Assembly (NCBI GenBank): GCA_964355795.1
Contig: CAYHEQ010000004.1
Location: forward strand, 1-42,253
Direction of reading: 5' to 3'
DNA: 42,253 bases
Origin: an uncultured Candidatus Saccharibacteria bacterium
GTDB lineage: Bacteria; Patescibacteriota; JACPGU01
Shown: positions 18,608-41,505 of the stretch, one piece after another
Layout of the letters: each line of letters opens with the position of its first letter
Numbering within the stretch: position 1 is the stretch's first letter
Notes under the pieces: generated by a model
What the model saw: only the letters and a program-made list of their open reading frames with translations
Database searches by the model: none
What the model was told of the DNA's origin: nothing
Position numbers and translations under genes: made by a program

Positions 18608-18673
18608 ATCCTGAAAGATTAGTATATAAGGAAAAAATCTTCTTCACAAGAGAGATTCTTGCGCTGAAGTTAC

Positions 18674-18702
18674 ATTATATCACAAAATCAGAGTAAAGTC
18701 AA
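18674..18702 (-). promoter_or_regulatory. near-consensus sigma70-type promoter for the DHH phosphoesterase gene
   Basis: The minus strand reads TTGACT-17 nt-TATAAT with TG at the extended -10 position (ttgactttactctgattttgtgatataat). Confidence 0.6.
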
Positions 18703-18890
18703 CTTTTTGAGTAAAAACAGGAGCGAAAATGCCCCCATCACTTCTTTTTTGTTTTCACCCTGTACTCTTCCTTGTATATCCCTCTCAATTCTTTTTGGAT
18801 ATCTTGCGTATTCGCATGCGAACGGCTGGCTGGGTTCGGTTTCTCCTCAAAAAGAACAAGAAGCCCCAAATAGGACCTCTTGATTCCAAG

Positions 18891-19015
18891 AAACTTCGGA
18901 ACGAGCTCGCCAATTAGGATTAGCATTGTGAGGGTTGATTCTATTGACGTTCAACTTGTCATTGATGCCATTCCAGTTCACAATCACGACATTGCCATCG
19001 GCATCGCGCGAGCTA
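18891..19015 (-). repeat. DGR-type template repeat (TR)
   Basis: 125 bp matching 19360-19484. All 15 differences have A on the minus strand here. The implied translation is Asn-rich (NWNGINDKLNVNRINPHNANPNW). Confidence 0.85.
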
Positions 19016-19295
19016 AATTTTGTCTGACTCCCTCCGCATGCCACCGGCTTTCTTTTGCAAGATTCCTGTGTTCTCCCTTCGTCTCAAAGGGCTATGTTTC
19101 CGACCAATATCTTTGAGGAATATATGTCGCGCAGAATCAGACAAGCAGTTTCTCTAAAATGTGGCAAACCGCTATCCCCCACCACTCGCACTTTCTAAAA
19201 GCCAATCACATCATCAGAACAAGAATCGTTTTCTAAAATACACGAGTGGCGGGGGACCGATTGTATTAGCCAAAGATTATTTTAGCAAAACAAAA

Positions 19296-19323
19296 CCCCC
19301 GCGTCAAAACCACAACGCGGGGG
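19296..19323 (-). other. GC-rich hairpin 36 nt downstream of the VR
   Basis: cccccgcg-tcaaaaccacaa-cgcggggg, an 8-bp G/C stem just past the target gene stop. Confidence 0.6.
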
Positions 19324-19357
19324 GAATCCAAAGGATTCAAGATTAAGGTTTCAAGGA

Positions 19358-20188
19358 TTAAACTGCGGAACGAGCCCGCCAATCAGGATAAGCATTGCGA
19401 GGGCTGAAACTATTGACGCGCAACCTGTCATCGATGCCACCCCAGTGCACAATCACGACATTGCCATCGGCATCGCGCGAGCTAGTAATTGTGACGGTCT
19501 TGAGGTCGAGATGTTGGCCGGTATTCCAGTGATACCAGAGCTCGAGAAGAAGGCGTTCCTCAAGAGTAATAATGTCCATGCCTTCTCCTCGACAGGCATC
19601 AGCGGATTTGTTTTTGTTCTCCTCGTCCGCTTCTTGACCACCACGGAACCATTTGAAGTAGGTTTGGCTGGTGTTGCGCGGAGCCTCAACTATTTGTGTG
19701 TTGAGATCATCGTAGAGCTTCCACGCCTTGCTACTAAAGCGATTCTTGCACTTGCCAAAAAGTTCTTCGCGAGTAAGCCCCTCCAAAACAGCCATTAGCC
19801 ACTGAGAGTCCTTGGGCTTTTCGTGGATGAAAGCACTGGAAAGATCCACTTCTTTTTTGAAGACATCGGAATAAAAACGCTGAAGTCCCTCGATCTGCGC
19901 GCTATAATCTCCGATGGATTCAGAGGTAATCTTGCCAGAGGAGAATGCCTCAAAAAGTTTTATGGCAGTGGCTGGGGAGATGCCTACGGGAAGCTTCACC
20001 CAGATTGCTTTTGCAACATCCTTTGTTTGTCGCAAAAGTTCCGATATCTTCTTCGCCAGTAGGGTCTTCTTCCCAATCCAATACTGCGCGTCTAGAGCCA
20101 ACAAGTCGGTAGGGATCGATTGTACGACAGCGCTTATCAGCTCCCTAAGCTGTTTGGCGCTAAGGACAGTTCTATCATCTTTCTTCAT
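19358..20188 (-). CDS. DGR target protein (hypothetical, C-terminal variable region)
   Basis: 276 aa, with AAAGGAGGA 7 nt upstream of the ATG. The last 41 codons coincide with the VR. No recognisable family otherwise. Confidence 0.8.
   Translation of the reverse strand: MKKDDRTVLSAKQLRELISAVVQSIPTDLLALDAQYWIGKKTLLAKKISELLRQTKDVAKAIWVKLPVGISPATAIKLFEAFSSGKITSESIGDYSAQIEGLQRFYSDVFKKEVDLSSAFIHEKPKDSQWLMAVLEGLTREELFGKCKNRFSSKAWKLYDDLNTQIVEAPRNTSQTYFKWFRGGQEADEENKNKSADACRGEGMDIITLEERLLLELWYHWNTGQHLDLKTVTITSSRDADGNVVIVHWGGIDDRLRVNSFSPRNAYPDWRARSAV
19360..19484 (-). repeat. DGR-type variable repeat (VR)
   Basis: Partner of 18891-19015 at an offset of 469. Carries G/C/A (plus strand) at the 15 positions where the TR has T. 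Confidence 0.85.
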
Positions 20189-20373
20189 GATAGACAGTTC
20201 CTCCTTTCGCGTTTTATGCCCGCCGGCGGTTTGCCTGTCGCCCTACGGGCGATCAGGGTATAGATTTTGAAGGTTCGTAGCTTCCGAACCCGACTACTGC
20301 CATTTTACTCCTTTTTGGCTCTGCTGTCAAATAAATCTAGTTGACTATCTCCACAGACCCCTCCGGCCAGTTT

Positions 20374-22305: not shown

Positions 22306-22436
22306 TTTCGCTAATTAACTCAAATTACTTGAATAAACAAAATTGTAACTTTCATTTGATTTTTTGCTTAATTTTTGATAGTATTTGTATTCAATAGCCA
22401 ATCCGAATGTTCGGAATGTTTTATCTTTGGCGATTT

Positions 22437-22633
22437 GCGCCCATAGCTCAGTTGGTTAGAGCGCCACTCTTACCCGCCCGCCTGGACTTCGTTTGTGCGC
22501 CTATAGCTCAGTTGGTTAGAGCGCCACTCTTATAAGGTGGATGTCGCTGGTTCAAGTCCAGCTAGGCGCATTCGTCAAGGCGAAGTCGGGCGCGGTAAGG
22601 TGGAAGTCCCTGGTTTCAGCCCCAAGCTGACCT
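22437..22633 (+). pseudogene. disrupted outer tRNA-Ile-like copy split in its anticodon by a 123-nt insert
   Basis: 22437-22472 matches the first 36 nt of the intact tRNA with 1 mismatch. 22596-22633 is a degenerate copy of its 3' half that cannot form a T arm or acceptor stem. Confidence 0.6.
22497..22570 (+). tRNA. tRNA-Ile (anticodon TAT)
   Basis: Manual cloverleaf: acceptor gcgccta/taggcgc, D arm gctc-agttggtta-gagc, anticodon arm ccact-cTTATAa-ggtgg, T arm gctgg-ttcaagt-ccagc. No encoded CCA. Confidence 0.85.
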
Positions 22634-22641
22634 ACCGTAGC

Positions 22642-22730
22642 GCAATCTATTTGGCGAAGAGGAATAATCACCCCCGTCTGCAATGCTTTGCATAGCAATG
22701 CGGGCAGGTATTTCGCCAAGAGATTAAGCG
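22642..22730 (+). repeat. 89-nt structured repeat, copy A
   Basis: Shares a 58-nt core (1 difference) with 23418-23506. The closing helix is ttggcgaa/ttcgccaa. Confidence 0.7.
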
Positions 22731-22797
22731 CAGGGCAGGCAAGTCCATCCACGCGCATTTCGTAAGTGGTAAGCCAAGCCTTTTGTAAAATAAAAAT

Positions 22798-23202
22798 ATG
22801 ATAAAAGATATTATCAGACTTTTTGAAAAACAGAGTAAATTCTCAAAGACCATGATGGCCTTGATTGTCGTGGGAACATTGATGCTGTATTCATCTCTGA
22901 ATATTGTTTATAGGAATTACCAAATCAATAGACAAATAAAGGGTCTGGAGCAAGAAATCGCTTATTTACAAGAAAATAACATTGAACAAAGGAACAGAAT
23001 CCTGTATTATAGTACGGACGCCTTCGCTGAAAAGATTTTGCGACAAAAACTCAATCATCAGAAGGAGGGCGAGAGGGTCTACGCCTTGGCGCGCAAAGAT
23101 CCTGAAAGAGAGAAGTTAGTCAGAGAGCAACAGAAGTATCAAGAAAGGGAGGAGAAAAAAGCGAATATTTTGAAATGGTGGGATTTCTTCTTTAAGCACT
23201 AA
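22798..23202 (+). CDS. FtsB/DivIC-like septum formation initiator
   Basis: Single TM helix (MMALIVVGTLMLYSSL), a coiled coil (QINRQIKGLEQEIAYLQENNIEQRNRI), then DAFAEKILRQKLNHQKEGERVY. Confidence 0.6.
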   Translation: MIKDIIRLFEKQSKFSKTMMALIVVGTLMLYSSLNIVYRNYQINRQIKGLEQEIAYLQENNIEQRNRILYYSTDAFAEKILRQKLNHQKEGERVYALARKDPEREKLVREQQKYQEREEKKANILKWWDFFFKH

Positions 23203-23290
23203 TTGCGCGAATATTTGACTAATTGCGCGAATGAATGATCTCCGAAATGATTAGTGAAATTCGTTAAAAATTCGCGTAATTAGTGTATGT

Positions 23291-23362
23291 CGCGGGGTAG
23301 AGCAGTGGTAGCTCGCAAGGCTCATAACCTTGAGGTCGTGGGTTCAATTCCCACCCCCGCAA
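23291..23362 (+). tRNA. tRNA-Met (CAT), initiator-like
   Basis: Acceptor cgcgggg/ccccgca gives the C1:A72 mismatch typical of bacterial initiator tRNA. Anticodon arm caagg-ctCATaa-ccttg, T arm gtggg-ttcaatt-cccac. Confidence 0.85.
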
Positions 23363-23417
23363 TTTGAAATGTGTTACAGCAAGGATATAGATAGAAAAAC
23401 ATCTCACCCTCCGAAGA

Positions 23418-23506
23418 GCAATCTATGCCGAGAAGAGGAATAATCACCCCCGCCTGCAATGCTTTGCATAGCAATGCGGGCAGGTATTTCGAGGCGAGAT
23501 TAAGCG
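23418..23506 (+). repeat. 89-nt structured repeat, copy B
   Basis: Same core as copy A. The closing helix is gccgagaa/ttcgaggc, with three compensatory pair changes relative to A. Confidence 0.7.
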
Positions 23507-23535
23507 AAGGAGGGGTGTGGTTTTAGAAATAATTA

Positions 23536-23609
23536 GCCAGGGTAGCTCAGTTGGTTAGAGCGTAGGACTCATAAGCCTAAGGTCGAGAGTTCAATCCTCT
23601 CCCCTGGCA
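23536..23609 (+). tRNA. tRNA-Met (CAT), elongator; lysidine-type Ile2 not excluded
   Basis: Acceptor gccaggg/ccctggc, D arm gctc-agttggtta-gagc, anticodon loop ctCATaa, T arm gagag-ttcaatc-ctctc. Confidence 0.85.
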
Positions 23610-23612
23610 TTT

Positions 23613-23903
23613 ATGTTCTATGTATATATACTGCGAAGCACCAAATGCCAAAATTACTATATTGGCGTAAGTAATGATGTAAAAAGAAGATTAAAAGAGC
23701 ATAATAGTGGAATGTCGAAATCTACTAGTCCTTTCCGACCGTTTCTGCTCAAAAGGGTGGAGAGATACTTAACCATCAATGAGGCATACCGAAGGGAAAG
23801 ATTTTTGAAGTCAAAAAAAAGTAAAAAGATTATAGACCTAGTAGTAAAGAGTAGTCCCGACGTTCTTGCGGAGCAAGAAGTCGGGATCCCGATTTTGCGG
23901 TAG
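23613..23903 (+). CDS. GIY-YIG nuclease family protein
   Basis: FYVYILRS...NYYIGVSNDVKRRLKEHN...ERFLK has the GIY/YIG, R, H and E positions. The ATG starts 3 nt after the tRNA 3' end. Confidence 0.85.
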   Translation: MFYVYILRSTKCQNYYIGVSNDVKRRLKEHNSGMSKSTSPFRPFLLKRVERYLTINEAYRRERFLKSKKSKKIIDLVVKSSPDVLAEQEVGIPILR

Positions 23904-23905
23904 CA

Positions 23906-23979
23906 AACATCGGGACTCAGTTGGTTAGAGCACAGCACTCATAACGCTGAGGTCGTGGGTTCGATCCCCGCCCCTGGTA
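23906..23979 (+). pseudogene. tRNA-Met(CAT)-like copy with a damaged 5' acceptor/D region
   Basis: From the D loop onward it is a good tRNA (agttggtta-gagc, ctCATaa, gtggg-ttcgatc-cccgc, 3' acceptor ccctggt). The 5' 12 nt (aacatcgggactc) pair with it at only 4 of 7 acceptor positions. Confidence 0.45.
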
Positions 23980-23988
23980 TTTAGCATT

Positions 23989-24039: not shown

Positions 24040-24402
24040 TTAAGCGCAATTTTTAGCCAGCCATTCGGAGAGGTCTTTGACGGAGGCGGTAAAAAGATTA
24101 TTTTTGAAAAAATCAAAAGTGGCGGGACTGGAAGCGTCAAATTCTTTTTTATTAATCTTAAGAAAGACAGCCATAGCAGTCAAGGCTGTCGGCAGATTAC
24201 CGGACGCGAAAGGCTTCTTTTTCGCGATAGCGAAAATCAGCGCGCCAGCTTTGTCAAAAAGCGTGGGGAAAACTTCGTTGTTTTTGATGTAGCTGACTGT
24301 TCTTTTCAAAATCTTGGTGTCGCCAATGCCGTCGCGACCTCCTATTTCGGAGGTTACGCGACTATGGATGTATAGTATTTCGGAAGGAGATAAATAATTC
24401 AT
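24040..24402 (-). CDS. Fic/Doc-family toxin-like protein with a degenerate active-site motif
   Basis: Size (120 aa) and pattern (ILYIHSRV...GGRDGI...GALIFAIAKKKPFASGNLPTALTAMAVFL) fit Doc. KPFASGNLPT replaces the HxFx(D/N)(A/G)NKR motif. Confidence 0.65.
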   Translation of the reverse strand: MNYLSPSEILYIHSRVTSEIGGRDGIGDTKILKRTVSYIKNNEVFPTLFDKAGALIFAIAKKKPFASGNLPTALTAMAVFLKINKKEFDASSPATFDFFKNNLFTASVKDLSEWLAKNCA

Positions 24403-24506
24403 TCTGACAATTTTTCTAGGTCTTTCTTGTATTTCTTGATGAATTCTTCAATATGCCGAGCCTTTTCGTCTTCCAGTTGGAAATTGACGAGTGGTTCAAT
24501 ACGAAT
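24399..24506 (-). pseudogene. 3' fragment of an AbrB/MazE-type antitoxin gene, still stop/start coupled to doc
   Basis: Encodes ...EPLVNFQLEDEKARHIEEFIKKYKKDLEKLSE*, a diverged copy of the C-terminal ~35 codons of 24665..24898. Its TGA overlaps the doc ATG (ATGA). Confidence 0.7.
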
Positions 24507-24551
24507 GGCTGGATGATGGTTTGACTTGCAGGAAACCCTTCTTCCTGATCC

Positions 24552-24589
24552 AAGGTTCGACCTTAAAGGATGCCCAAAGGTCGAACCTT
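24552..24589. repeat. 13-bp hairpin with loop AAAGGATGCCCA, copy 2
   Basis: aaggttcgacctt-aaaggatgccca-aaggtcgaacctt. The loop is identical to 20465-20476 and the stem is unrelated. Confidence 0.85.
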
Positions 24590-24664
24590 TTAATTCTTAC
24601 AAATAAGAGAGTAATTAATATACAAATGAAACGATTTGAATTTGTATATTTGTAATGTCTAGAA

Positions 24665-24898
24665 CTACTCTGATAGTTTTTCCAAATCTTTCTTGTATTT
24701 CTTAATAAATTCTTCAATGTGCTGGGCTTTTTCATCTTCCAGCTGGAAATTGACCAGTGGTTCAATAATAATGCGACGATTCTTGCCGTCCACATTGACG
24801 AAAACTTTGTCGCCAATTGCTATCGCCAAATTACCCAAAACTTTTTTGGGGATAGTTACCGCCGCCGAAGAGCCGATTTTGATGATTTTGTTGGCCAC
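24665..24898 (-). CDS. AbrB/MazE/SpoVT-family antitoxin
   Basis: IIKIGSSAAVTIPKKVLGNLAIAIGDKVFVNVDG looped-hinge-helix pattern, 77 aa. Confidence 0.75.
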   Translation of the reverse strand: MANKIIKIGSSAAVTIPKKVLGNLAIAIGDKVFVNVDGKNRRIIIEPLVNFQLEDEKAQHIEEFIKKYKKDLEKLSE

Positions 24899-26003: not shown

Positions 26004-26078
26004 CTATCCCACCCATTCCTCTACCATCAAAAATTCTTTCTTGTTGGCGAGAGGGAGGGTTTGGTAGATTTCTTCGGT
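26004..26078 (-). pseudogene. displaced remnant of the valS 3' end
   Basis: Encodes TEEIYQTLPLANKKEFLMVEEWVG*, compared with the functional ValRS C-terminus TEEIYQILPLAGKKEFLMVEEWPSS. About 75 bp of DNA similarity to 26905-26980. Confidence 0.75.
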
Positions 26079-26089
26079 GGTTATTTATT

Positions 26090-26662
26090 TTACACTAATG
26101 TCTTGTGTTCAAAAATATCAATATCCTCTTTTGATAATAATTTCGATAAAGAAGCGTGTCTTTGAAGGGCGAAGCTGGGCTGATTGGAAAAGCCGATATA
26201 CTCCACTTTTTTACCCAATTCTTTGGCCTTCTTGATGGCTGGAATCAAATCAGTATCGGAAGAAATTAGAATGGCTGAATCGTAGAGATTTTCGTATGCC
26301 CCAACCAACAGATCAACCGCCAATTCAACATCAACGCCCTTCTCATGATACGCTCCGTTATTTTGCATGATATATCCTCTTTTTATCGTAAAACCCTGAA
26401 CCTTTGATTCTATATGAGCAAAAAGGCGTTGCTGTTCTCTCCTCAATTCCTCGCCCTTTTTGTTCCCTTTTTCCACTCGCACCACCCCCACATAATATCC
26501 TTGATAAACTACTTTTCTTTCCCGAGCCAAAAATTCCGATAATCCTTTGTAATTAAATTTATTCAGGTTTTTGAAACCTAATTCTTTTGATCGTAATTTA
26601 TAATAAAGGTTACTCCCATCTATAAAGACAGCGATCCTTTCTTCTTTTCTTTCTTTGCTCAT
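26090..26662 (-). CDS. NYN-domain (LabA/DUF88-like) protein
   Basis: IAVFIDGSNLYY...GVDVELAVDLL...AILISSDTDLIPAIKKAKELGKKVEYIGF. AAGGAGGG lies 4 nt upstream of the ATG. Confidence 0.85.
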   Translation of the reverse strand: MSKERKEERIAVFIDGSNLYYKLRSKELGFKNLNKFNYKGLSEFLARERKVVYQGYYVGVVRVEKGNKKGEELRREQQRLFAHIESKVQGFTIKRGYIMQNNGAYHEKGVDVELAVDLLVGAYENLYDSAILISSDTDLIPAIKKAKELGKKVEYIGFSNQPSFALQRHASLSKLLSKEDIDIFEHKTLV

Positions 26663-26880: not shown

Positions 26881-29193
26881 TTAAGATTGCGCTCTCGGAT
26901 TTCTACTACTAGGCCATTCCTCTACCATCAAAAATTCTTTTTTGCCAGCAAGGGGCAAGATCTGGTAGATTTCTTCGGTGATGAAAGGGATCATCGGGTG
27001 CAGGAGAATGAGAGAATTTTTCAAAATGAAAAGGAGGTTGTCTTTAGTTTCTTTTTCAATTCTTAATTGCTCTGCGTTTTTATTATTTGGATTTTGAGTA
27101 TTGGGTATTGTTTGTGATTTGTGATTTGTGATTTGTGATTTTGTTTCCTCTATATACTTATCGCAAAATTCGTGCCAGAAAAAATGATAGATCTCTTCTG
27201 CCGCTTGACCGAAACGGAATTTTCCCAGATTGTCATGGTAGGATTTTTTTAATTCTGCAAATTTTAATTTAATCTCTCGATCAGCCTCGGTATTTTCGGT
27301 AAAATCAAGCTCGCCTCGCTGTTCATAGCCATCCAGCTTCATCAAAACAAAGCGCGTGGCGTTCCAGATCTTGTTCATAAAGGTCTTGGCCATTTGCAAA
27401 ACATCCTCGGAAAATTTGATATCCGGTGTGCCGGTGGTTTGGTAAATCAAGCCAAATCGTGTCGCGTCAGCGCCATATTTCTCCACCATAAGCAGAGGGT
27501 CGATGCCAGTGCCGAGCGACTTGCTCATCCTTTTCCCTTCTTTGTTAAAGACGGTTGGGTTGATATAGATAGTGTGAAAAGGCGCTTCGCCCATAAATTC
27601 AATCCCTGAAAAAAGCATGCGCACCTCCCAGAGATTGATAATCCCGCGGTCGGTGACATTGATGGAATTCGGATAGTATTTTTCCAAATCTGTTTTCTTG
27701 TTTTCTTGACTTCTTGACTTCTTGACTTCTTGACCATCGGGCCAACCGAGAGTCGCAAATGGCCACAGCGCCGATGAAAACCAAGTATCCAGAACATCTT
27801 CCGATTGAACCATATCGCAATCACTGCAGAAAGGGCATTTTTCTGGCCTATTGGCTGAAACAATGCATTGGTTTTGAATTTTAGATTTTGGATTTAAGGT
27901 TTGTTTGGGATTTGAGATTTGGGATTTGAGATTTTCTGCCGTTTGGTTTTTACAAAACCAAACAGGCAGTTGGTGTCCCCACCAGATCTGACGGCTGATA
28001 CACCAATCGCGGATATTTTCCAGCCAATGCATCGCTGTCCCCTCGTATTGTTCGGGGATGATTTTCACCTTACCTGATTTTAACGCTTCAATCGCGGGCT
28101 TGATTAATTCCGCCATTTTCACGAACCATTGCTTTGACGGGATTGGTTCGATAACGGTGTGGCAACGGTAACATTGCGCGCTATTGTGAATATAGTTGTC
28201 GTCAATGCGATCAATCAGCCCCATTTTTTCCATATCAGCCACGATGACTTTTCGCGCCTCCAGTGTCGTCAAACCTGCATATTTGCCACAATTGGCCATC
28301 ATCTTGCCATCTTCGTCTATTATTTGCTTTAATGGCAAATGATGGCGAAGCGAGATATCGTAATCCACAGAGTCATGGGCGGGAGTGACCTTGATAGCTC
28401 CCGAACCAAAGGCGGGATCTACCATCTCGTCAGCGACCACGGTGATCTCAAATTCGCCCAAGACCCCGGGAATCATATATTTCTTACCCACCATCTCGCG
28501 GTATCTTTCGTCAGACGGATGAACCGCCACCGCGGTATCGCCGAGTTTCGTCTCCGGACGAGTGGTTGCTAAAACAAAGGGGCCATATTTGATCCAATAC
28601 AATTTCGTTTTTTCTTCCTCGTGTTCTATCTCCAAATCAGACAAAGAGGTCTTGCATCTCGGACACCAATTGACCACTCTCTCGCCTTGATAAATATAGC
28701 CCTTGTCCCAATAGTGCTTGAAGGCGACGAGAACTGCGCGAGAATAACCTTCATCCATCGTGAAACGAGTGCGAGACCAGTCGCAGGAGACACCAAGTTT
28801 TTTCAGCTGTCCCAAAATAGTTGCCTCGTATTGATCCTTCCATTCCCAAACTTTTTCGACGAATTTTTCCCGCCCCAAATCAAAGCGATTCACCCCTTCT
28901 TTTTGTAATTTTTGTTCTACTTTGTACTGCGTGGCAATCCCCGCGTGATCGGTGCCGGGGATCCAAAGCGTTGGTCGTCCCTCCATTCTTTTTTGTCGAA
29001 TCAAAACGTCTTGCAAGGTATTGTTGAGCGTGTGCCCCATATGCAATTCGCCCGTCACATTGGGTGGGGGGATGGCAATGACAAAAGGTTCTCCTTTGGC
29101 TTTTTCGGAGGGCGAGAAATATCCCGACTTTTCCCAAAGCGGGTAGATTTTCCCTTCCACTTCGGCTGGATTGTAGGTTTTGGAGAGTTCCAT
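26881..29193 (-). CDS. valS: valine--tRNA ligase (with in-frame low-complexity insertions)
   Basis: PPPNVTGELHMGH (HIGH), RMSKSLGTG (KMSKS), editing-domain block TTRPETKLGDTAVAVHP, and EDVLDTWFSS. Confidence 0.95.
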   Translation of the reverse strand: MELSKTYNPAEVEGKIYPLWEKSGYFSPSEKAKGEPFVIAIPPPNVTGELHMGHTLNNTLQDVLIRQKRMEGRPTLWIPGTDHAGIATQYKVEQKLQKEGVNRFDLGREKFVEKVWEWKDQYEATILGQLKKLGVSCDWSRTRFTMDEGYSRAVLVAFKHYWDKGYIYQGERVVNWCPRCKTSLSDLEIEHEEEKTKLYWIKYGPFVLATTRPETKLGDTAVAVHPSDERYREMVGKKYMIPGVLGEFEITVVADEMVDPAFGSGAIKVTPAHDSVDYDISLRHHLPLKQIIDEDGKMMANCGKYAGLTTLEARKVIVADMEKMGLIDRIDDNYIHNSAQCYRCHTVIEPIPSKQWFVKMAELIKPAIEALKSGKVKIIPEQYEGTAMHWLENIRDWCISRQIWWGHQLPVWFCKNQTAENLKSQISNPKQTLNPKSKIQNQCIVSANRPEKCPFCSDCDMVQSEDVLDTWFSSALWPFATLGWPDGQEVKKSRSQENKKTDLEKYYPNSINVTDRGIINLWEVRMLFSGIEFMGEAPFHTIYINPTVFNKEGKRMSKSLGTGIDPLLMVEKYGADATRFGLIYQTTGTPDIKFSEDVLQMAKTFMNKIWNATRFVLMKLDGYEQRGELDFTENTEADREIKLKFAELKKSYHDNLGKFRFGQAAEEIYHFFWHEFCDKYIEETKSQITNHKSQTIPNTQNPNNKNAEQLRIEKETKDNLLFILKNSLILLHPMIPFITEEIYQILPLAGKKEFLMVEEWPSSRNPRAQS
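27113..27140. repeat. 7-nt x4 tandem repeat inside valS
   Basis: tgtgatt x4, part of the in-frame segment ...QITNHKSQTIPNTQNPNNKN.... Confidence 0.85.
27705..27735. repeat. 8-nt x~4 tandem repeat inside valS
   Basis: cttgactt x3 plus cttgacc, encoding ...GQEVKKSRSQE.... Confidence 0.85.
27870..27934. repeat. T/G-rich stuttered repeat inside valS
   Basis: ggttttgaattttagattttggatttaaggtttgtttgggatttgagatttgggatttgagatttt encodes ...ENLKSQISNPKQTLNPKSKIQNQ... between the WFCKNQ and CPFCSDC blocks. Confidence 0.8.
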
Positions 29194-30539: not shown

Positions 30540-31559
30540 TCAAGCGTGAAGCTCCAATGGGACTCCCTGGACGGACACACCAATCCTGTCATTGGCAAGC
30601 CTGCAATACCAATCGTCGTTGACATTGACACCATCGTCGCTACCGTAGATGCACAGAGGGTCGTCGGGATCAGGAGTGTTCGTCCGAGACCACGTGGTCA
30701 TGCGCAATTTGGCGTCAAGCGCTCTGACCAGATTGAGCATTAGGGTATCGCTGGATACTGTGGCGATATCCATCTTCTTCTTGGCGACTACCGCTTGTTG
30801 CACATCCCAATCTCTCATGGCGGTCCACAGAGGGTGTTCGTAGCCGATCCGCCAGCACCATTTGGTGGAGGCGGGCTCTTGCGCCCACTGATGGTTTGGC
30901 CCCAAGAACCAATTGGAATAGAAAACATTGTTCCTGATCGTCCCTGGTCCGAGGTTGTCGTGAGCCACTCTCCACCACAAGGATTGGTTAATGAGGTGGG
31001 TGGGCAGGTTGCCCTCTTTGGCAGGGACAGAGGGTGGACAGAGGTAGAGAATGAAGAGGGTTTTCCACTCTTTGGTTTTGCAGAGTTCAGAGAGCCCCCG
31101 TATGAGATCGGGAGTAATCTCAATCTCTCTGCCGTCTGGGGTAATGATGACCATGGGAATGTCTCTGGGCGCCCATCTTTCAGGTAGACCCAGAGGGTTC
31201 TCTCCTTCGGAACCAAGGAAGGCCTTTTCCACCTCGTCAGGACCGATGAAGATGCCGTTGTCAAACCGGCGGTAGGGGGAGAAGGGATCGAGAATCTCTT
31301 GGGGGATCTCGCCCTTTTGAAGAAGGGTGAGAAGCCGAAGAGCGGATTTTGGATCTATGCCAGGGGGGAGGGCTATCTGATTACCTCCTTCATAAAAAAC
31401 GGGCTCCCCCTTCAATACCGCTTTCAGCATACCTTCCACCACCGTCTTATCGCGTAAAGCTTGTTGCGCCTGCGCATGAGTGAGCTTACATGACTTCAGG
31501 GTTTTGATGATAAAAATCGTCATATCGAAAGCCTGATCGCCACTTGTCGGTTTGCTCAT
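30540..31559 (-). CDS. hypothetical Trp-rich protein
   Basis: The start is set at ATG 31559 (AAGGAGGTG 5 nt upstream). 339 aa with no family recognised. By eye it is more G+C-rich than its neighbours. Confidence 0.6.
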   Translation of the reverse strand: MSKPTSGDQAFDMTIFIIKTLKSCKLTHAQAQQALRDKTVVEGMLKAVLKGEPVFYEGGNQIALPPGIDPKSALRLLTLLQKGEIPQEILDPFSPYRRFDNGIFIGPDEVEKAFLGSEGENPLGLPERWAPRDIPMVIITPDGREIEITPDLIRGLSELCKTKEWKTLFILYLCPPSVPAKEGNLPTHLINQSLWWRVAHDNLGPGTIRNNVFYSNWFLGPNHQWAQEPASTKWCWRIGYEHPLWTAMRDWDVQQAVVAKKKMDIATVSSDTLMLNLVRALDAKLRMTTWSRTNTPDPDDPLCIYGSDDGVNVNDDWYCRLANDRIGVSVQGVPLELHA

Positions 31560-31737
31560 AACGCACCTCCTTCGTTTTTGCCCCAATCGGTCTGAAAGGG
31601 GCGAGCGCCTTAATTCTTAAGGTTCGCTTTACTGCGTGGATACATTATACCACCACAGGGCTTCTTGTCAACCTTTTTGGCTTGATTGAGCGAATATGGT
31701 GGAATTACTTCGGGGCTCAACTTATAAGCAACCTTTC

Positions 31738-32308: not shown

Positions 32309-33604
32309 TCACAGGTTTTTGCTCGACGCGACCTCAAAATTCATTTTGCTTAATTGCTTAATTGGTTTTTTGGTTAATTGGAACAAAGCGCAGGTCGCGA
32401 CCATTGTCGCGTTGTCGCCACAGTATTTGAGAGGGGGTAGAACGAGATTTGGATGTCCGACATCGAACCCGCTAGATGACGGACATCTCAGCTCACCTAG
32501 AGTAATCGCCATTTTTTCGCGCAAACGTTTGTTGGCGGCGACGCCTCCGGCGATAGAGATGGTCTTGGCTTTGTATTTTTGCGCGGCGCGGATAGTTTTC
32601 GCCACCAAAACATCAGTGGCGGCTTCTTCAAATTCGTAGGCGAACGATCCTTTTCGCGCTTCAGCCGAGGTCGCACCTCCGTCCGCTACGCTCTCCGAGG
32701 AACGACCCCCACTTTCGCGTTGCCAAGCATACAAAACGGCAGTTTTGAGACCGGAAAAGGAAAAATTGAGGTCCTTGCTGTCTAGCATAGGACGAGGGAA
32801 GGTTAGGCCAGTGTTGAGTGTTGAGTGTTGAGTGTTGAGTTTAGGATTTTGAATTTGAGATTTGTTTGTGTTTTGTGAAGTTTGTGTTTTGTGAAGTTTT
32901 TTTCGGTATTCATCCGCATATCGCGAGACGCTCGGTCCTCCGGGGTATCCCAACCCCAAAATCCTCGCCACTTTATCAAAGGCCTCCCCCGCCGCGTCAT
33001 CCAAGGTCTCGCCCAGCGTCTGATATTGACCATGGTCTTTCATTAAAATAAGCGAGGTATGCCCACCAGAGACCAGCAATATGATTGCTGGAAATTCGAA
33101 GGGGGTTGCGTTTAGGTTGAAATTTTGGATTTGTAATTTGTTTGTGTTTTGTGTTTTGTAATTTGTGTTTTCGCGAATTTTATCGGAGATAAAATTCGCG
33201 TAGATGTGTCCCTCCAAATGATTCACCGGTATCAAGGGCTTCCCCCACGCCAGCGCCAATGATTTGGCGGTATTAACGCCTACCAGAAGCGAGCCAATCA
33301 GCCCTGGATAGGCGGTAACGGCGATAGCGTCTATCTGTCGAGGTGTCACCTCGGCATCTTTGAACGCCTTATCAATGACAGAGATGATCTGCTCCACATG
33401 AGCGCGAGAAGCCACTTCTGGCACCACCCCGCCGGTTAAAGCGTGGATATCCACTTGAGAGGCAATAACAGATGACAAAACGTGTGCTCCTTTTTGAAGT
33501 CGCACTTCGTCTGGTGCCGAAGAACGACTTCTTTGAGGAGCGCGCAACTCCACCACCGAAGCGGCCGTCTCATCACAACTTGTTTCAATGCCTAGAATAA
33601 TCAT
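32309..33604 (-). CDS. tsaD: tRNA N6-adenosine threonylcarbamoyltransferase TsaD (insertion-rich)
   Basis: MIILGIETSCDETAASVV, NHLEGHIYANF, VSGGHTSL, GGVAANKRLRE. At 431 aa it is clearly longer than the family norm because of several inserts. Confidence 0.9.
   Translation of the reverse strand: MIILGIETSCDETAASVVELRAPQRSRSSAPDEVRLQKGAHVLSSVIASQVDIHALTGGVVPEVASRAHVEQIISVIDKAFKDAEVTPRQIDAIAVTAYPGLIGSLLVGVNTAKSLALAWGKPLIPVNHLEGHIYANFISDKIRENTNYKTQNTNKLQIQNFNLNATPFEFPAIILLVSGGHTSLILMKDHGQYQTLGETLDDAAGEAFDKVARILGLGYPGGPSVSRYADEYRKKLHKTQTSQNTNKSQIQNPKLNTQHSTLNTGLTFPRPMLDSKDLNFSFSGLKTAVLYAWQRESGGRSSESVADGGATSAEARKGSFAYEFEEAATDVLVAKTIRAAQKYKAKTISIAGGVAANKRLREKMAITLGELRCPSSSGFDVGHPNLVLPPLKYCGDNATMVATCALFQLTKKPIKQLSKMNFEVASSKNL
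32810..32898. repeat. tandem repeats inside tsaD
   Basis: gtgttga x4 (32810-32837) and ttgtgttttgtgaagt x2 (32865-32896), encoding ...KKLHKTQTSQNTNKSQIQNPKLNTQHSTLNT.... Confidence 0.85.
33108..33172. repeat. T/G-rich stuttered repeat inside tsaD
   Basis: gcgtttaggttgaaattttggatttgtaatttgtttgtgttttgtgttttgtaatttgtgtttt encodes ...RENTNYKTQNTNKLQIQNFNLNA.... Confidence 0.8.
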
Positions 33605-38953: not shown

Positions 38954-39008
38954 GAAGCTCCTCGAGTGTAATCACGAGAGGTTTCGTAGGAAATCGCGAC
39001 CTTGCCTG

Positions 39009-39028
39009 TTCCGACCGTAGCGTCGGAA
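39009..39028. repeat. CCGAC..GTCGG hairpin in the polA leader
   Basis: ttccgac-cgtagc-gtcggaa. The loop is the reverse complement of the loop at 15878-15883. Confidence 0.65.
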
Positions 39029-39141
39029 GGGAGCGAAGCGGAATCCCCCGAAGCAGATTTCGAGACCAACACTGGGTTATTTCTAAATATTTTTCTCAAC
39101 ACATGCCTCGCTTAAACACAAATCTATATTGCGAAGGGTGG

Positions 39142-39279
39142 ATAGATTATGGCATTAGTTGCTATAATCTATTATACTAGATTGTGAAGAATATCAAAAT
39201 GTCGGATGTAGCATCCGACTAGCACAAAAACACTCAACACATAATCTTTATGCGAGATATCTTCACATAAAGACGAGTT
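39142..39279 (+). repeat. conserved left block, copy 1 (bidirectional promoter-like region plus hairpins)
   Basis: 39142-39203 aligns to 41353-41414 and 39244-39279 aligns to 41470-41505. Contains tgctataat (+), TTGATA-15-TATAAT on the minus strand facing polA, and the hairpin ctttatgcgag...cacataaag. Confidence 0.8.
39200..39225 (+). repeat. TGTCGGATGTAGCATCCGACTAGCAC hairpin element, copy 2
   Basis: Identical to 13704-13729. It occupies the slot where the 41.4-kb copy of the block has a different hairpin. Confidence 0.85.
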
Positions 39280-41252: not shown

Positions 41253-41354
41253 CTAAAATTGACCATCTCTAGTGCGCAGATTGGGTATCGCGTGATACGC
41301 CCGATGGACAAGGGCGTTGGAATCAATTAAGAGAAATCTTTTCTTCTTGGGCAT
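41253..41354 (-). pseudogene. displaced remnant of the polA 5' end
   Basis: Encodes MPKKKRFLLIDSNALVHRAYHAIPNLRTRDGQF*, compared with PolA MTKKKKFLLIDSNALVHRSYHAIPNLRTKDGKS. Confidence 0.8.
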
Positions 41355-41505
41355 AGATTATAGCTTTACTGGCTAGAATCTATTATACTAGATTGTGGGT
41401 AATATCAAAATGTCAGGACAGAGTCCCTGCTCGCATGGGATGACGATTACCTATAATACCCGACATACCATCTTTATGCGAAATATCTTCGCATAAAGAC
41501 GAGTT
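41353..41505 (+). repeat. conserved left block, copy 2
   Basis: Aligns to 39142-39279, with a different central hairpin and the perfect hairpin ctttatgcgaa-atatc-ttcgcataaag (41472-41498). Confidence 0.8.

What the first reader, a model, noticed from the sequence alone, without database searches (positions are those of the whole stretch)
18891..20188. DGR-type template/variable repeat pair with strictly adenine-specific differences
Segments 18891-19015 and 19360-19484 (constant offset 469, no gaps) are identical except at 15 positions. At every one of these the 18891 copy has T on the plus strand, which is A on the minus strand, the coding strand of the 276-aa ORF. The positions are 18896, 18907, 18915, 18921, 18929, 18935, 18939, 18940, 18950, 18951, 18956, 18963, 18971, 18972 and 18978. 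The partner carries G, C or A at those sites. The 37 bp at 18979-19015 are invariant. The 19360 copy is the last 41 codons of CDS 19358..20188. Read in the same frame, the template is Asn-rich (SSRDADGNVVIVNWNGINDKLNVNRINPHNANPNWRARSEV) where the gene reads SSRDADGNVVIVHWGGIDDRLRVNSFSPRNAYPDWRARSAV. A-to-N substitution from an AAY-rich template into the 3' end of a target gene is the defining signature of diversity-generating retroelements. The target protein has no obvious family, so its ligand-binding fold is unknown.
Basis: partly seen in the sequence, partly recalled or inferred. Interest (0 to 1): 0.9.

Follow-up and report, generated by a model that had tools for sequence, protein, structure and literature searches.

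The report
Diversity retroelement module missing its enzyme
This is a real diversity-generating retroelement footprint in a groundwater ultra-small (CPR) bacterium: a gene tail rewritten from an adenine-rich template carried on a structured RNA, but the reverse transcriptase and its helper protein that should sit next to it are absent from the whole 42-kb contig.

Summary
Segments 18891-19015 (TR) and 19360-19484 (VR) differ at 15 of 125 ungapped positions, and all 15 are adenines of the TR on the minus strand (chance about 4e-10).

The 276-aa target belongs to a family found only in Patescibacteria (CPR bacteria). In 33 related genome loci the same VR-to-TR arrangement recurs. In about 27 of them a reverse-oriented bAvd gene and an RT follow the TR. 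This is the published "B3" TR-(avd)-RT architecture typical of CPR.

The window has no RT or Avd anywhere. The TR hairpin is followed by the nrnA promoter.

It has its own promoter and is absent from Rfam 15. The window's copy is intact (111 bits).

One leader motif (GAAACUGC) pairs with the TR 3' end, directly beside a 12-bp helix that closes just upstream of TR. This is the Bordetella primer-duplex and stop-duplex layout, but placed 5' of TR.

Most likely this is a recently orphaned module. Supply of RT-Avd in trans cannot be excluded. The target fold is only weakly C-type-lectin-like.

The parts
20302..20330 (-). Promoter-like site of the target gene (TTGACA-17-TAAAAT, 11 of 12)
   Evidence: Consensus scan. 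Position only; not tested.
19358..20188 (-). DGR target gene, 276 aa: N-terminal helical part plus C-terminal alpha/beta domain; no Pfam or NCBIfam family
   Evidence: ORF. Family of 82 CPR protein clusters. AF2 pLDDT 90.4; C-terminal domain 95.1. No family hits.
19360..19484 (-). Variable repeat (VR): last 41 codons of the target
   Evidence: 15 of 15 mismatches to the TR lie at TR adenines. Columns that vary across the family coincide with this stretch.
19328..19356 (-). VR-proximal CTT repeats with a 7-8 nt period (CCTTGAAA CCTTAAT CTTGAAT CCTTTGG). Family-wide and absent after the TR. Inferred to mark the VR side for homing, in the role of an IMH.
   Evidence: mean 3.15 CTT in the 45 nt after the VR, against 1.30 after the TR and 1.88 in shuffles. 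53 of 72 spacings are 7 or 8 nt. Function is inferred only.
19296..19323 (-). GC-rich hairpin plus T run after the VR: terminator of the target gene, in the position of the hairpin that DGR targets carry downstream of the VR
   Evidence: 11-bp stem, 8 GC pairs. An equivalent hairpin is present in relatives.
19279..19307 (-). Promoter-like site of the TR RNA (TTGACG-17-TAAAAT with an upstream TG)
   Evidence: A -10 box (TATAAT or TAAAAT) is conserved at this position in relatives.
19016..19274 (-). Structured leader RNA of the TR transcript (helices P1, P2, P3-P5). It has a 77-nt hairpin insertion in P1 at about 19176-19256.
   Evidence: A covariance model built only from 20 other loci hits 19010-19274(-) at 111 bits, E 1.9e-32, full length. 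Covariation is shown. The single-sequence fold recovers P2, z = -4.1. No Rfam family matches.
19145..19153 (-). Leader motif AGAAACUGC, complementary to the TR 3' end. Candidate primer-side strand.
   Evidence: 84% of cells paired against 22-50% in slid controls. The outermost pair is GC 12, AU 8, CG 5, UA 2. The priming role is inferred.
19133..19144 (-). P2 5' strand (UUGUCUGAUUCU), directly 3' of the motif above
   Evidence: 12-bp helix, 10 pairs with compensatory changes, 98% paired.
19020..19032 (-). P2 3' strand (GGGAGUCAGACAA), ending 4 nt before the TR. Candidate counterpart of the Bordetella cPRT-stop duplex strand.
   Evidence: The analogy rests (bioRxiv 10.1101/2023.10.23.563531).
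18891..19015 (-). Template repeat (TR), AAY-rich, non-coding
   Evidence: TRs of other species are 78-93% identical to each other, with adenines conserved.
18857..18882 (-). Hairpin immediately after the TR, followed by a T run: terminator of the TR RNA. It sits where Avd-binding stem-loops were predicted downstream of the TR in other DGRs.
   Evidence: 11-bp stem. Present in all relatives. Literature.
18608..18856 (-). Where relatives carry the reverse-oriented avd and then the RT, the window has only 249 bp containing the nrnA promoter (18674-18702). A 14-nt resemblance to the avd 3' end at 18816-18829 is not significant.
   Evidence: tblastn with 25 relatives' RTs. Avd and RT profile HMMs on all six frames with filters off. 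nhmmer. PWM shuffles, 24% reach the score. Promoter.

Best explanation
The window holds the target-plus-template half of a CPR-type diversity-generating retroelement (published architecture B3: target, TR, reverse avd, RT).

How it works:
- A strong promoter drives a 276-aa target gene.
- Just after its terminator a second promoter drives a non-coding RNA of about 415 nt. This RNA consists of a structured leader of about 260 nt, the 125-nt TR, and a terminator hairpin.
- Reverse transcription of that RNA, with random incorporation opposite adenines, followed by replacement of the VR by the cDNA, produced the 15 adenine-only differences.

The enzyme half is missing. A reverse-oriented bAvd gene and the RT start right after the TR hairpin in relatives. 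The window contig has neither.

I think the avd-RT pair was most likely lost from this locus recently. The VR would then be a frozen record of past retrohoming, and the module is stranded unless enzymes are supplied from elsewhere.

Shown: the repeat pair and its adenine specificity; absence of RT and Avd in 42 kb; family membership; the conserved leader structure and its integrity here; the promoter and terminator motifs.

Inferred: the transcript ends; the role of the leader in priming and stopping cDNA synthesis; loss by deletion; present inactivity.
For: The repeat pair is exact and adenine-specific (P about 4e-10).

The family context is canonical DGR.
- 33 GTDB loci show the same VR-to-TR layout, with the TR 350-500 bp downstream of the VR.
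- An RT ORF with a YCDD motif follows about 300-450 bp after the TR. The stop-to-stop ORF begins 208-393 bp after the TR end in most loci.
- Between TR and RT lies an opposite-strand bAvd-like gene (PF22296, E down to 4e-15; NF033474, E 7e-15) and the RT is RVT_1 (E 9e-24).
[quoted passage not shown] 2018 (PMC5758913).

No RT or Avd is present in the window. The TR-to-nrnA junction is confirmed by an independent assembly.

Decay is common in this family.
- L041 has an internal avd/RT deletion.
- L064, L075 and L072 lack the RT.
- L069 has a TR/VR pair with only 7 of 21 mismatches at A.
- L008 has a leader without a TR, plus an inserted IS200-type (Y1) transposase.
- L039 and L068 have a leader fused to an RT C-terminal remnant.

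Wu et al. discarded over half of candidate DGRs as inactivated.

Loci without an RT carry more non-A mismatches than RT-linked loci (0, 0, 3, 3, 6, 14 against a median of 1; P = 0.06).

The target's 90% cluster holds a single sequence, and three assemblies are 100% identical.
Against: Nothing in the module itself looks decayed.
- 0 of 90 non-A positions differ, which is as clean as the best RT-linked loci.
- The leader scores 111 bits, within the range of RT-linked loci that were not used for training (75-157 bits).
- Both promoters and both terminators are intact.

No significant avd or RT remnant marks a deletion.

The window is only about 4% of a typical CPR genome, so an RT elsewhere cannot be excluded.

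Remote action is common in the family. The L065 VR matches the L055 TR about 20 kb away, and four paralogous VRs in one genome have no local TR.

The identical VR in three assemblies is uninformative, because the whole 6.3 kb is identical.
Confidence: 0.5

Rival explanations
1. The module is still active. An RT-Avd pair encoded elsewhere in the same genome, probably in a second DGR cassette of the same clade, acts in trans on this self-contained leader-TR RNA and keeps rewriting the VR.
For: The module is pristine: 0 of 90 non-A mismatches, an intact leader, and intact promoters and terminators.

In complete cassettes the TR RNA already ends at a hairpin plus T run before the convergent avd gene. 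The enzymes therefore always meet the RNA as separate molecules.

All conserved RNA elements with covariation lie upstream of the TR. Nothing downstream therefore seems to be required in cis.

Remote VRs are served in this family.

avd, TR and brt work from a plasmid in trans in Bordetella (Wu et al.). The Bordetella RNP is reconstituted from separate RNA and proteins.

Nanoarchaeal genomes with several DGR RTs and DGR fragments are described.
Against: No genome in the fetched set shows an RT-less leader-TR module coexisting with an RT cassette elsewhere. The one two-locus genome with such a module (L075 plus L039) has both loci decayed.

RT-less modules in relatives tend to accumulate non-A mismatches.

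Helix P5 of the window's leader has three non-canonical pairs.

No VR variants of this protein exist in 5.8 billion clustered proteins.
Confidence: 0.38
2. The RT and Avd are really adjacent in the genome but were lost from the contig by misassembly or a chimeric join at the TR or VR repeat.
For: Repeats such as TR and VR can break or mis-join assemblies. Contig L002 ends inside the post-TR hairpin.
Against: An independent assembly from another sample (L001, 6265 bp) runs uninterrupted from the target through the TR into nrnA, rpsO and pnp, and is 100% identical to the window.

The order SpoIID / slot / NrnA / S15 / PNPase / RNase J is syntenic in the two nearest relatives.
Confidence: 0.03
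3. It is not DGR-derived. An ordinary duplication of the gene's 3' end diverged by chance or by some other A/T-biased mutational process.
For: No RT is present locally, so the mechanism is not demonstrated in this contig.
Against: 15 of 15 differences lie at adenines of one copy only, with substitutions to G, C and T (P about 4e-10). The adenines sit in AAY codons. The same polarity and layout recur in 33 loci, with RT and Avd alongside in most. The pair is flanked by the family-specific leader RNA.
Confidence: 0.01

Closest known systems
CPR-type DGRs of architecture B3, TR-(avd)-RT (Wu et al. 2018, PMC5758913; DGR clade 2 of Roux et al. 2021, PMC8144416)
   Same: - The target has a C-terminal VR and no recognisable domain or transmembrane segment.
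- The TR lies downstream of the target.
- Differences are adenine-only.
- In relatives of this locus, a reverse-oriented bAvd gene and an RVT_1 RT follow the TR. This is the arrangement that accounts for 90% of the published CPR set.
- Roux et al. note that CPR targets typically lack recognisable domains.
   Different: The window's copy lacks both avd and RT.

The structured leader of about 200 nt upstream of the TR is not mentioned in the papers I could read. The RNA survey of Handa et al. looked only at 40 nt upstream and 100 nt downstream of the TR.

I could not open Paul et al. 2017, the primary CPR DGR paper. Prior description there cannot be ruled out.
Bordetella phage BPP-1 DGR (mtd-avd-TR-brt) and its RNP structure (Handa et al., bioRxiv 10.1101/2023.10.23.563531)
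   Same: - Adenine mutagenesis, a VR at the gene's 3' end, a hairpin after the VR, and a stem-loop right after the TR.
- One continuous RNA strand pairs first with the TR 3' end and then, immediately adjacent, with the segment just upstream of the TR, so the TR is looped out between two stacked duplexes.
- The CPR leader shows the same geometry: GAAACUGC pairs with the TR 3' end, followed with no gap by the 12-bp P2 helix.
- The boundary of sequence transfer falls inside that duplex at a conserved G. This parallels TR G117 next to the Sp A56:TR118 pair.
   Different: In Bordetella that strand (Sp47-70) and the protein-binding stem-loops lie 3' of the TR. Here they lie 5' of it, an apparent circular permutation.

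The avd gene is on the other strand. There is no GC-rich IMH; instead there are periodic CTT repeats. The target is unrelated to Mtd. Priming chemistry is untested here.
C-type-lectin-fold DGR variable proteins (Mtd, TvpA, TaqVP and relatives)
   Same: The VR forms the C-terminal strands of a compact alpha/beta domain. The best Foldseek matches of the C-terminal domain model are mostly C-type lectin-like domains: MCL, rhodocetin, mannose-receptor and DEC205 CTLDs, CD23, and an FGE paralogue (TMq 0.40).
   Different: No match is significant (best E 0.28). No known DGR variable protein appears among the listed hits. There is no sequence or profile match to PDB or Pfam. The fold assignment remains open.
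Trichodesmium DGR, whose TR is an abundant discrete sRNA serving at least 12 remote targets (PMC6596454)
   Same: The TR is expressed as its own small RNA, and VRs are served at a distance. In this family the TR RNA has its own promoter and terminator, and remote VRs exist.
   Different: The passage I read says nothing about where that element's RT lies relative to its TR. Here a TR unit stands without any RT in 42 kb.
Retron msr-msd RNA (from my own knowledge; not tested here)
   Same: A structured RNA sits 5' of the template. A pairing between a 5' segment and the template's 3' end positions the start of reverse transcription.
   Different: There is no evidence here for branched msDNA or for a retron-clade RT. 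The RTs in relatives score best against the group II intron RT model, below its cutoff. None reaches the curated cutoff of the retron St85 model or of any other RT model. This is an analogy only.

Membership tests
Diversity-generating retroelement (DGR) | Near-identical TR/VR pair whose mismatches fall only at adenines of the template copy | tested here: met
   15 of 15 mismatches are at TR adenines and 0 of 90 non-A positions differ. P = 3.6e-10.
Diversity-generating retroelement (DGR) | VR inside a protein-coding gene (usually the 3' end); TR non-coding with AAY-rich codons in the VR frame | tested here: met
   The VR is the last 41 codons of ORF 19358..20188(-). In that frame the TR reads as an Asn-rich stretch.
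Diversity-generating retroelement (DGR) | DGR-clade reverse transcriptase encoded in the cassette | tested here: not met
   No RT in 42,253 bp: no YxDD ORF, tblastn with 25 family RTs found nothing, and an RT profile HMM on six frames with filters off found nothing. The RT is present in about 27 related loci.
Diversity-generating retroelement (DGR) | Accessory protein Avd (in most DGRs) | tested here: not met
   Avd profile HMM: no hit. The 62-aa and 58-aa ORFs after the TR have no Pfam match. Relatives carry bAvd (PF22296 and NF033474).
Diversity-generating retroelement (DGR) | Target-site signals at the 3' end of the VR (IMH and a downstream GC-rich inverted repeat) | tested here: inconclusive
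   A GC-rich hairpin lies at 19296-19323. There is no GC-rich IMH. Family-specific periodic CTT repeats are present instead. Function is untested.
Diversity-generating retroelement (DGR) | Hypervariability of the VR in populations | tested here: inconclusive
   For this protein there is one sequence only, and three assemblies are 100% identical over up to 6.3 kb. No reads were available. Relatives do vary: P0012 and P0093 differ at 11 residues, all in the VR.
CPR DGR architecture B3: target, TR, (avd), RT | Reverse-oriented avd between TR and RT | tested here: not met
   Met in relatives (definition). In the window the TR hairpin is followed by the nrnA promoter and gene.
Leader RNA of this DGR lineage (model R1, built here) | Full-length match to a covariance model with helices P1, P2 and P3-P5 | tested here: met
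   Window 19010-19274(-): 111 bits, E 1.9e-32, model positions 1-199. The model was built without the window.
C-type lectin fold DGR variable proteins | Structural match of the VR-bearing domain to a CLec or FGE-type fold | tested here: inconclusive
   The models are confident (pLDDT 90.4 and 95.1). The top PDB hits are CTLDs, but E is 0.28 or higher and TM is 0.3-0.5. BFVD gives nothing significant.
Known RNA families (Rfam 15, including the RT-1 to RT-19 motifs of Weinberg et al. 2017) | Match to a curated covariance model | tested here: not met
   No relevant hit at E up to 1 in the window region or in three canonical relatives. The RT motifs are described.

The most novel reading that the evidence does not exclude
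The TR RNA of this CPR DGR lineage is a circularly permuted version of the Bordetella DGR RNA. The primer-side strand, the stop-duplex strand and the protein-binding stem-loops all precede the TR. The leader-TR unit would then be a self-contained substrate. The RT-less module in this window would still be diversified in trans by an RT-Avd pair encoded elsewhere: a dispersed DGR with more than one template RNA per enzyme.
Probability: 0.25. Interest if true: 0.75.

Novelty: new member of a known kind. Interest (0 to 1): 0.55.

Why it matters
DGRs of candidate-phyla-radiation bacteria are numerous, but nothing is known experimentally about how they prime or what they target.

This locus and its 40 relatives give a compact, covariation-supported RNA model for the dominant CPR architecture. 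That model maps element by element onto the only solved DGR ribonucleoprotein, but with the elements on the other side of the template. This makes three questions directly testable with a few mutants:
- which nucleotide primes;
- which helix stops cDNA synthesis;
- whether the template RNA can be served in trans.

Modules without an RT matter for a second reason. DGR finders that start from the RT miss them. They show either how these elements decay or that one enzyme can serve several template RNAs.

The target family has about 240-280 residues, no signal peptide or transmembrane segment that I could see by eye, and several paralogues per genome. It is a candidate non-membrane, possibly intracellular, hypervariable binding protein in organisms with minimal genomes.

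Tried and rejected
**Searches for an RT or Avd in the window.** All were negative: a motif scan for YxDD, Pfam on ten ORFs, tblastn with 25 family RTs (the only hits were a groES artefact of the N-masked L020 ORF and the TR itself), and Avd and RT profile HMMs on all six frames with filters off.

**A vestige of avd after the TR hairpin.**
- By eye, 18816-18829 (CCAGCCGTTCGCAT, reading ..HANGWL.. on the other strand) resembles the conserved avd 3' end (..MANGWI..) at the right distance.
- nhmmer found nothing there. The Avd HMM gave E = 5. A PWM score was reached by 24% of shuffles.
- I do not count it as evidence for a deletion.

**The leader:TR 3'-end duplex as a simple primer whose 3' end (position l7) is extended.** Rejected. 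TR adenines t1 and t2 inside the duplex are mutagenised in VRs, so copying must start further 3', at about t3 or t4. That is why I propose internal 2'-OH priming, as in Bordetella.

**The L069 TR serving the remote L089 VR as proof of trans action.** 13 of 29 mismatches are non-A. Not clean, so dropped.

**Close relatives of the organism, to date the loss.** The nearest NrnA is only 54% identical. The two syntenic relatives carry unrelated small genes in the slot and have no leader.

**Fold assignment.** Foldseek against PDB (twice) and BFVD, a profile against PDB sequences, and Pfam on 70 members gave nothing significant.

**Literature.**
- Many paper-tool calls timed out.
- Paul et al. 2017 is not held.

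**Other repeat pairs in the window as further TR/VR pairs.** Their mismatch spectra are mixed.
Full report
**Observation.** The two segments are exactly as described.
- 18891-19015 and 19360-19484 align without gaps at offset 469. They differ at the 15 listed coordinates, and at every one the 18891 copy carries T on the plus strand, which is A on the minus strand.
- The minus-strand TR has 35 A in 125 nt, so the chance that all 15 differences fall on adenines is 3.6e-10. None of the 90 non-A positions differs.
- The 19360 copy is the 3' end of ORF 19358..20188(-), 276 aa.
- Other repeat pairs of similar length in the window have mixed mismatch spectra.
- Two independent assemblies from Hainich groundwater are 100% identical to the window over 6265 and 2276 bp, including both repeats and the flanks.

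**Surroundings in the window.**
- The contig is a stretch of Patescibacteria (CPR) housekeeping genes: trpS, groEL, efp, ssb, rpsF, ruvA, RNase J, pnp, rpsO, nrnA, a SpoIID-domain protein, tRNAs, valS, tsaD, holA and polA. I named most of them by eye from the translations. Pfam confirmed only the nrnA and SpoIID domains.
- On the minus strand the order is: target gene, 344-bp spacer, TR, 283 bp, nrnA.
- No reverse transcriptase and no Avd exist anywhere in the 42,253 bp. There is no YxDD ORF. tblastn with 25 family RTs found nothing. Family-specific RT and Avd profile HMMs on all six frames, with filters off, found nothing.

**The family.**
- The target has no Pfam, NCBIfam or PDB relative. 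It does belong to a family of about 230-290-residue CPR proteins: 82 clusters and 118 loci in GTDB representative genomes, of which 80 were fetched.
- The conserved core is RVEADEENKNKSAN...ITLxERLLLELWYHWKTGxHLD..NxTLCSGSR..DG.VP.V.W, followed by a patchwork of variable positions ending in LRARSAV.
- A self-comparison of every locus found the same polarity in 33 genome loci: a VR at the gene's 3' end and a TR 350-500 bp downstream, with 80-100% of mismatches at TR adenines. Four more loci were recognised later.
- In about 27 loci, ORF scans and sample Pfam/NCBIfam runs show what follows the TR: a hairpin, then an opposite-strand gene of 110-125 aa (PF22296 bAvd, NF033474 DivGenRetAVD), then a same-strand RVT_1 RT with a YCDD motif.
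- This is architecture B3, TR-(avd)-RT. Wu et al. 2018 found it in 90% of their CPR set and almost nowhere else (PMC5758913).
- The family is actively diversified. Cluster mates P0012 and P0093 are identical except for 11 residues, all in the VR. P0065 and P0090, P0048 and P0085, and P0059 and P0088 differ only in the VR.
- Remote targets occur. The L065 VR matches the L055 TR region about 20 kb away, and four paralogues in one genome share one VR scaffold with no local TR.

**The spacer is a structured RNA.**
- An alignment of VR-TR spacers shows conserved blocks in every locus, the window included. In order they are: a -10 box, GGCUAAUACAAUCGG, GAUAGCGGUUUGCCA, GAAACUGCUUG, several hairpins, and AACxCAG...UCGGUGA..GGAxGGAAUCAGGCAA. 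The TR follows.
- RNAalifold on 20 loci, without the window, predicts 36 pairs, 28 of them with compensatory changes.
- With controls, 95.1% of cells are paired, against 31-51% when partners are slid. 28 pairs show double changes, against 10-14 in the slid controls. None of 500 shuffles reaches any of the five measures.
- A covariance model from those 20 loci hits window 19010-19274(-) over its full length at 111 bits, E 1.9e-32. The hit has a 77-nt insertion that extends the P1 hairpin. That insertion explains the microRNA-like Rfam noise.
- The score lies within the range of RT-linked loci that were not in the training set (75-157 bits). The model finds the leader in 40 of 83 loci.
- Rfam 15 has no such family. 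This includes the RT-associated motifs of Weinberg et al..
- In the window a promoter-like site (TTGACG-17-TAAAAT, with an upstream TG) sits at 19307..19279. A hairpin plus T run follows the TR at 18882-18857.
- The TR RNA therefore looks like a discrete transcript of about 415 nt (fold z = -4.1).
- In complete cassettes the same hairpin separates the TR from the convergent avd gene. TR RNA and enzyme mRNAs therefore appear to be separate molecules throughout the family.

**A mechanistic reading (inferred).**
- The nearly invariant leader motif N-GAAACUGC is complementary to the conserved TR 3' end G(A)AGUUUC-N'.
- Over 36 loci, 84% of cells pair, against 22-50% in slid controls. The outermost pair shows four Watson-Crick types (GC 12, AU 8, CG 5, UA 2). 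There are single compensatory changes at two inner pairs. No shuffle of 500 reaches the covariation score.
- This motif is followed, with no intervening nucleotide, by the 5' strand of P2. P2 is a 12-bp helix in which 10 pairs covary. Its 3' strand ends 4-10 nt before the TR.
- One continuous strand therefore pairs first with the TR 3' end and then with the segment just upstream of the TR, and the TR is looped out between the two duplexes.
- This is the geometry seen by cryo-EM in the Bordetella RNP. There Sp47-56 (priming nucleotide A56) pairs with TR117-129. Two nucleotides later, Sp59-70 pairs with avd369-379 to form the cPRT stop. The TR is looped out, an Avd-binding stem-loop lies before the primer strand, and further stem-loops lie after the stop strand (bioRxiv 10.1101/2023.10.23.563531).
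- In the CPR leader the order is the same: P1 stem-loop, primer-side strand, stop strand, P3-P5. But the whole block lies 5' of the TR, an apparent circular permutation.
- The TR/VR comparison fits this reading. Position t1 of GAAGUUUC is A-to-N in 29 of 36 loci, and t2 in 11. Positions t3 and t4 are identical apart from six loci with a 1-nt indel. Non-adenine TR/VR differences begin at t5-t7. Transfer therefore starts at about the conserved G (t3), next to a leader adenosine paired with t4. This parallels TR G117 next to Sp A56.
- A plain 3'-end primer at the end of the motif is excluded by the same data.
- Handa et al. surveyed only 40 nt upstream and 100 nt downstream of the TR, so this leader would have escaped them.

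**VR side.** Between the stop codon and the terminator hairpin, the window and most relatives carry three or four CTT motifs spaced 7-8 nt apart. These are absent after the TR. I take them as a candidate VR-specific homing signal, but this is untested.

**Relic or trans-served?**

Arguments for a relic:
- The family shows a decay series, listed below.
- Wu et al. discarded more than half of candidate DGRs as inactivated.
- RT-less modules carry more non-A mismatches than RT-linked ones (P = 0.06).
- Helix P5 has three non-canonical pairs in the window.
- No VR variant of this protein exists in the protein collection.

The decay series in relatives:

| Locus | State |
|---|---|
| L041 | Internal avd/RT deletion |
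| L064, L075, L072 | No RT |
| L069 | Non-adenine mismatches dominate the TR/VR pair |
| L008 | TR deleted, IS200-type (Y1) transposase inserted |
| L039, L068 | Leader fused to an RT C-terminal remnant |

Arguments for trans supply:
- The module is flawless at every element I can score.
- Its RNA seems self-contained.
- Remote action is normal in the family.
- The contig is only a small part of the genome.

What does not help:
- A supposed avd vestige at 18816-18829 is not significant.
- The nearest relatives of the organism are too distant to date the loss. The nearest NrnA is 54% identical, and the syntenic slot between SpoIID and nrnA holds unrelated small genes.

I put a recently stranded relic at about 0.5 and trans supply at about 0.38.

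**Target protein.**
- AlphaFold models are confident: pLDDT 90.4 for the full length and 95.1 for residues 118-276.
- The VR forms the last four strands of a compact alpha/beta domain.
- Foldseek's best PDB matches for that domain are mostly C-type lectin-like domains and an FGE paralogue, but none is significant (E 0.28 or higher). BFVD gives nothing.
- I saw no signal peptide or hydrophobic segment by eye. Roux et al. likewise remark that CPR DGR targets lack recognisable domains.

**Verdict.**
- The finding is a genuine DGR template/variable pair of the known CPR B3 lineage, so it is a new member of a known kind.
- Two things are unusual. The enzymatic half is absent. The lineage carries a leader RNA that is undescribed as far as I could check, and its layout mirrors the Bordetella RNA in permuted order.
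- The permutation and the trans reading are inferences that need the experiments listed.

Noticed in passing
window 30540-31586 (-): A 348-aa ORF is a remote paralogue of the DGR target. BLASTP gives E 6e-6 over the N-terminal LPxGIxPxxAxxL segment, and it aligns with the family. It has no VR/TR relationship and no leader nearby.
   Followed up: partly
window 22436-23983: A cluster of tRNA genes with fragments.
- 22436-22472 is a 97% copy of the 5' half of tRNA-Ile (22496-22571).
- A 108-nt repeat (22627-22734 and 23403-23510, 86% identical) occurs twice, each copy lying 40-55 nt downstream of a tRNA gene.
- A GIY-YIG-like ORF (23613..23903) lies between tRNA-Met and a degenerate tRNA-like sequence at 23912-23975. 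Rfam scores the latter at 33.8 bits and ARAGORN is silent.
The region looks like a hotspot for integration or homing-nuclease activity.
   Followed up: no
window 26013-26079 and 26914-26980: An 85% copy of the 3' end of valS lies on the far side of a 190-aa ORF (26090..26662) that I judged LabA/NYN-like by eye. It looks as if an inserted gene duplicated the end of valS.
   Followed up: no
window 27087-27141, 27866-27934, 32841-32895, 33117-33171: G/T-rich repeats lie inside valS and tsaD. They encode in-frame low-complexity inserts (QIQNPK- or NTNKSQ-like) in otherwise conserved enzymes.
   Followed up: no
window 24040-24898: A Fic/Doc toxin gene (24040..24402) sits next to an ORF (24665..24898) that I judged an AbrB/MazE-type antitoxin by eye. 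There is also an 85% partial duplicate of the antitoxin region (24403-24507 against 24669-24773). The same Fic plus MazE pair is syntenic in relative L091.
   Followed up: no
window 38857-39279 and 41258-41505: The 5' end of polA and its upstream region are duplicated at 79-87% identity about 2.2-2.4 kb away. This suggests a second, truncated 5'-3' exonuclease start.
   Followed up: no
L031:1224-2312: In one relative the RT active-site motif reads YCDE instead of YCDD, and its TR/VR pair has 3 non-adenine mismatches of 24. The RT may be catalytically dead.
   Followed up: no
L025, L041, L055, L067, L090, L048 (VR 3' ends): In six loci the VR has one extra nucleotide relative to the TR, exactly at the inferred cDNA start (TR CAGAAGUUUC against VR CAGNNAGUUUC). 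This may reflect untemplated addition at initiation.
   Followed up: partly
L008:10919-11657: An IS200-type (Y1) transposase is inserted between a target gene and a leader whose TR has been deleted. This is an example of DGR decay by insertion.
   Followed up: partly
L091 and L092, compared with window 18608-20340: The interval between the divergent SpoIID-domain gene and nrnA is a variable slot. It holds an unrelated 111-aa gene in L091, an unrelated 269-aa gene in L092, and the DGR module in the window.
   Followed up: yes
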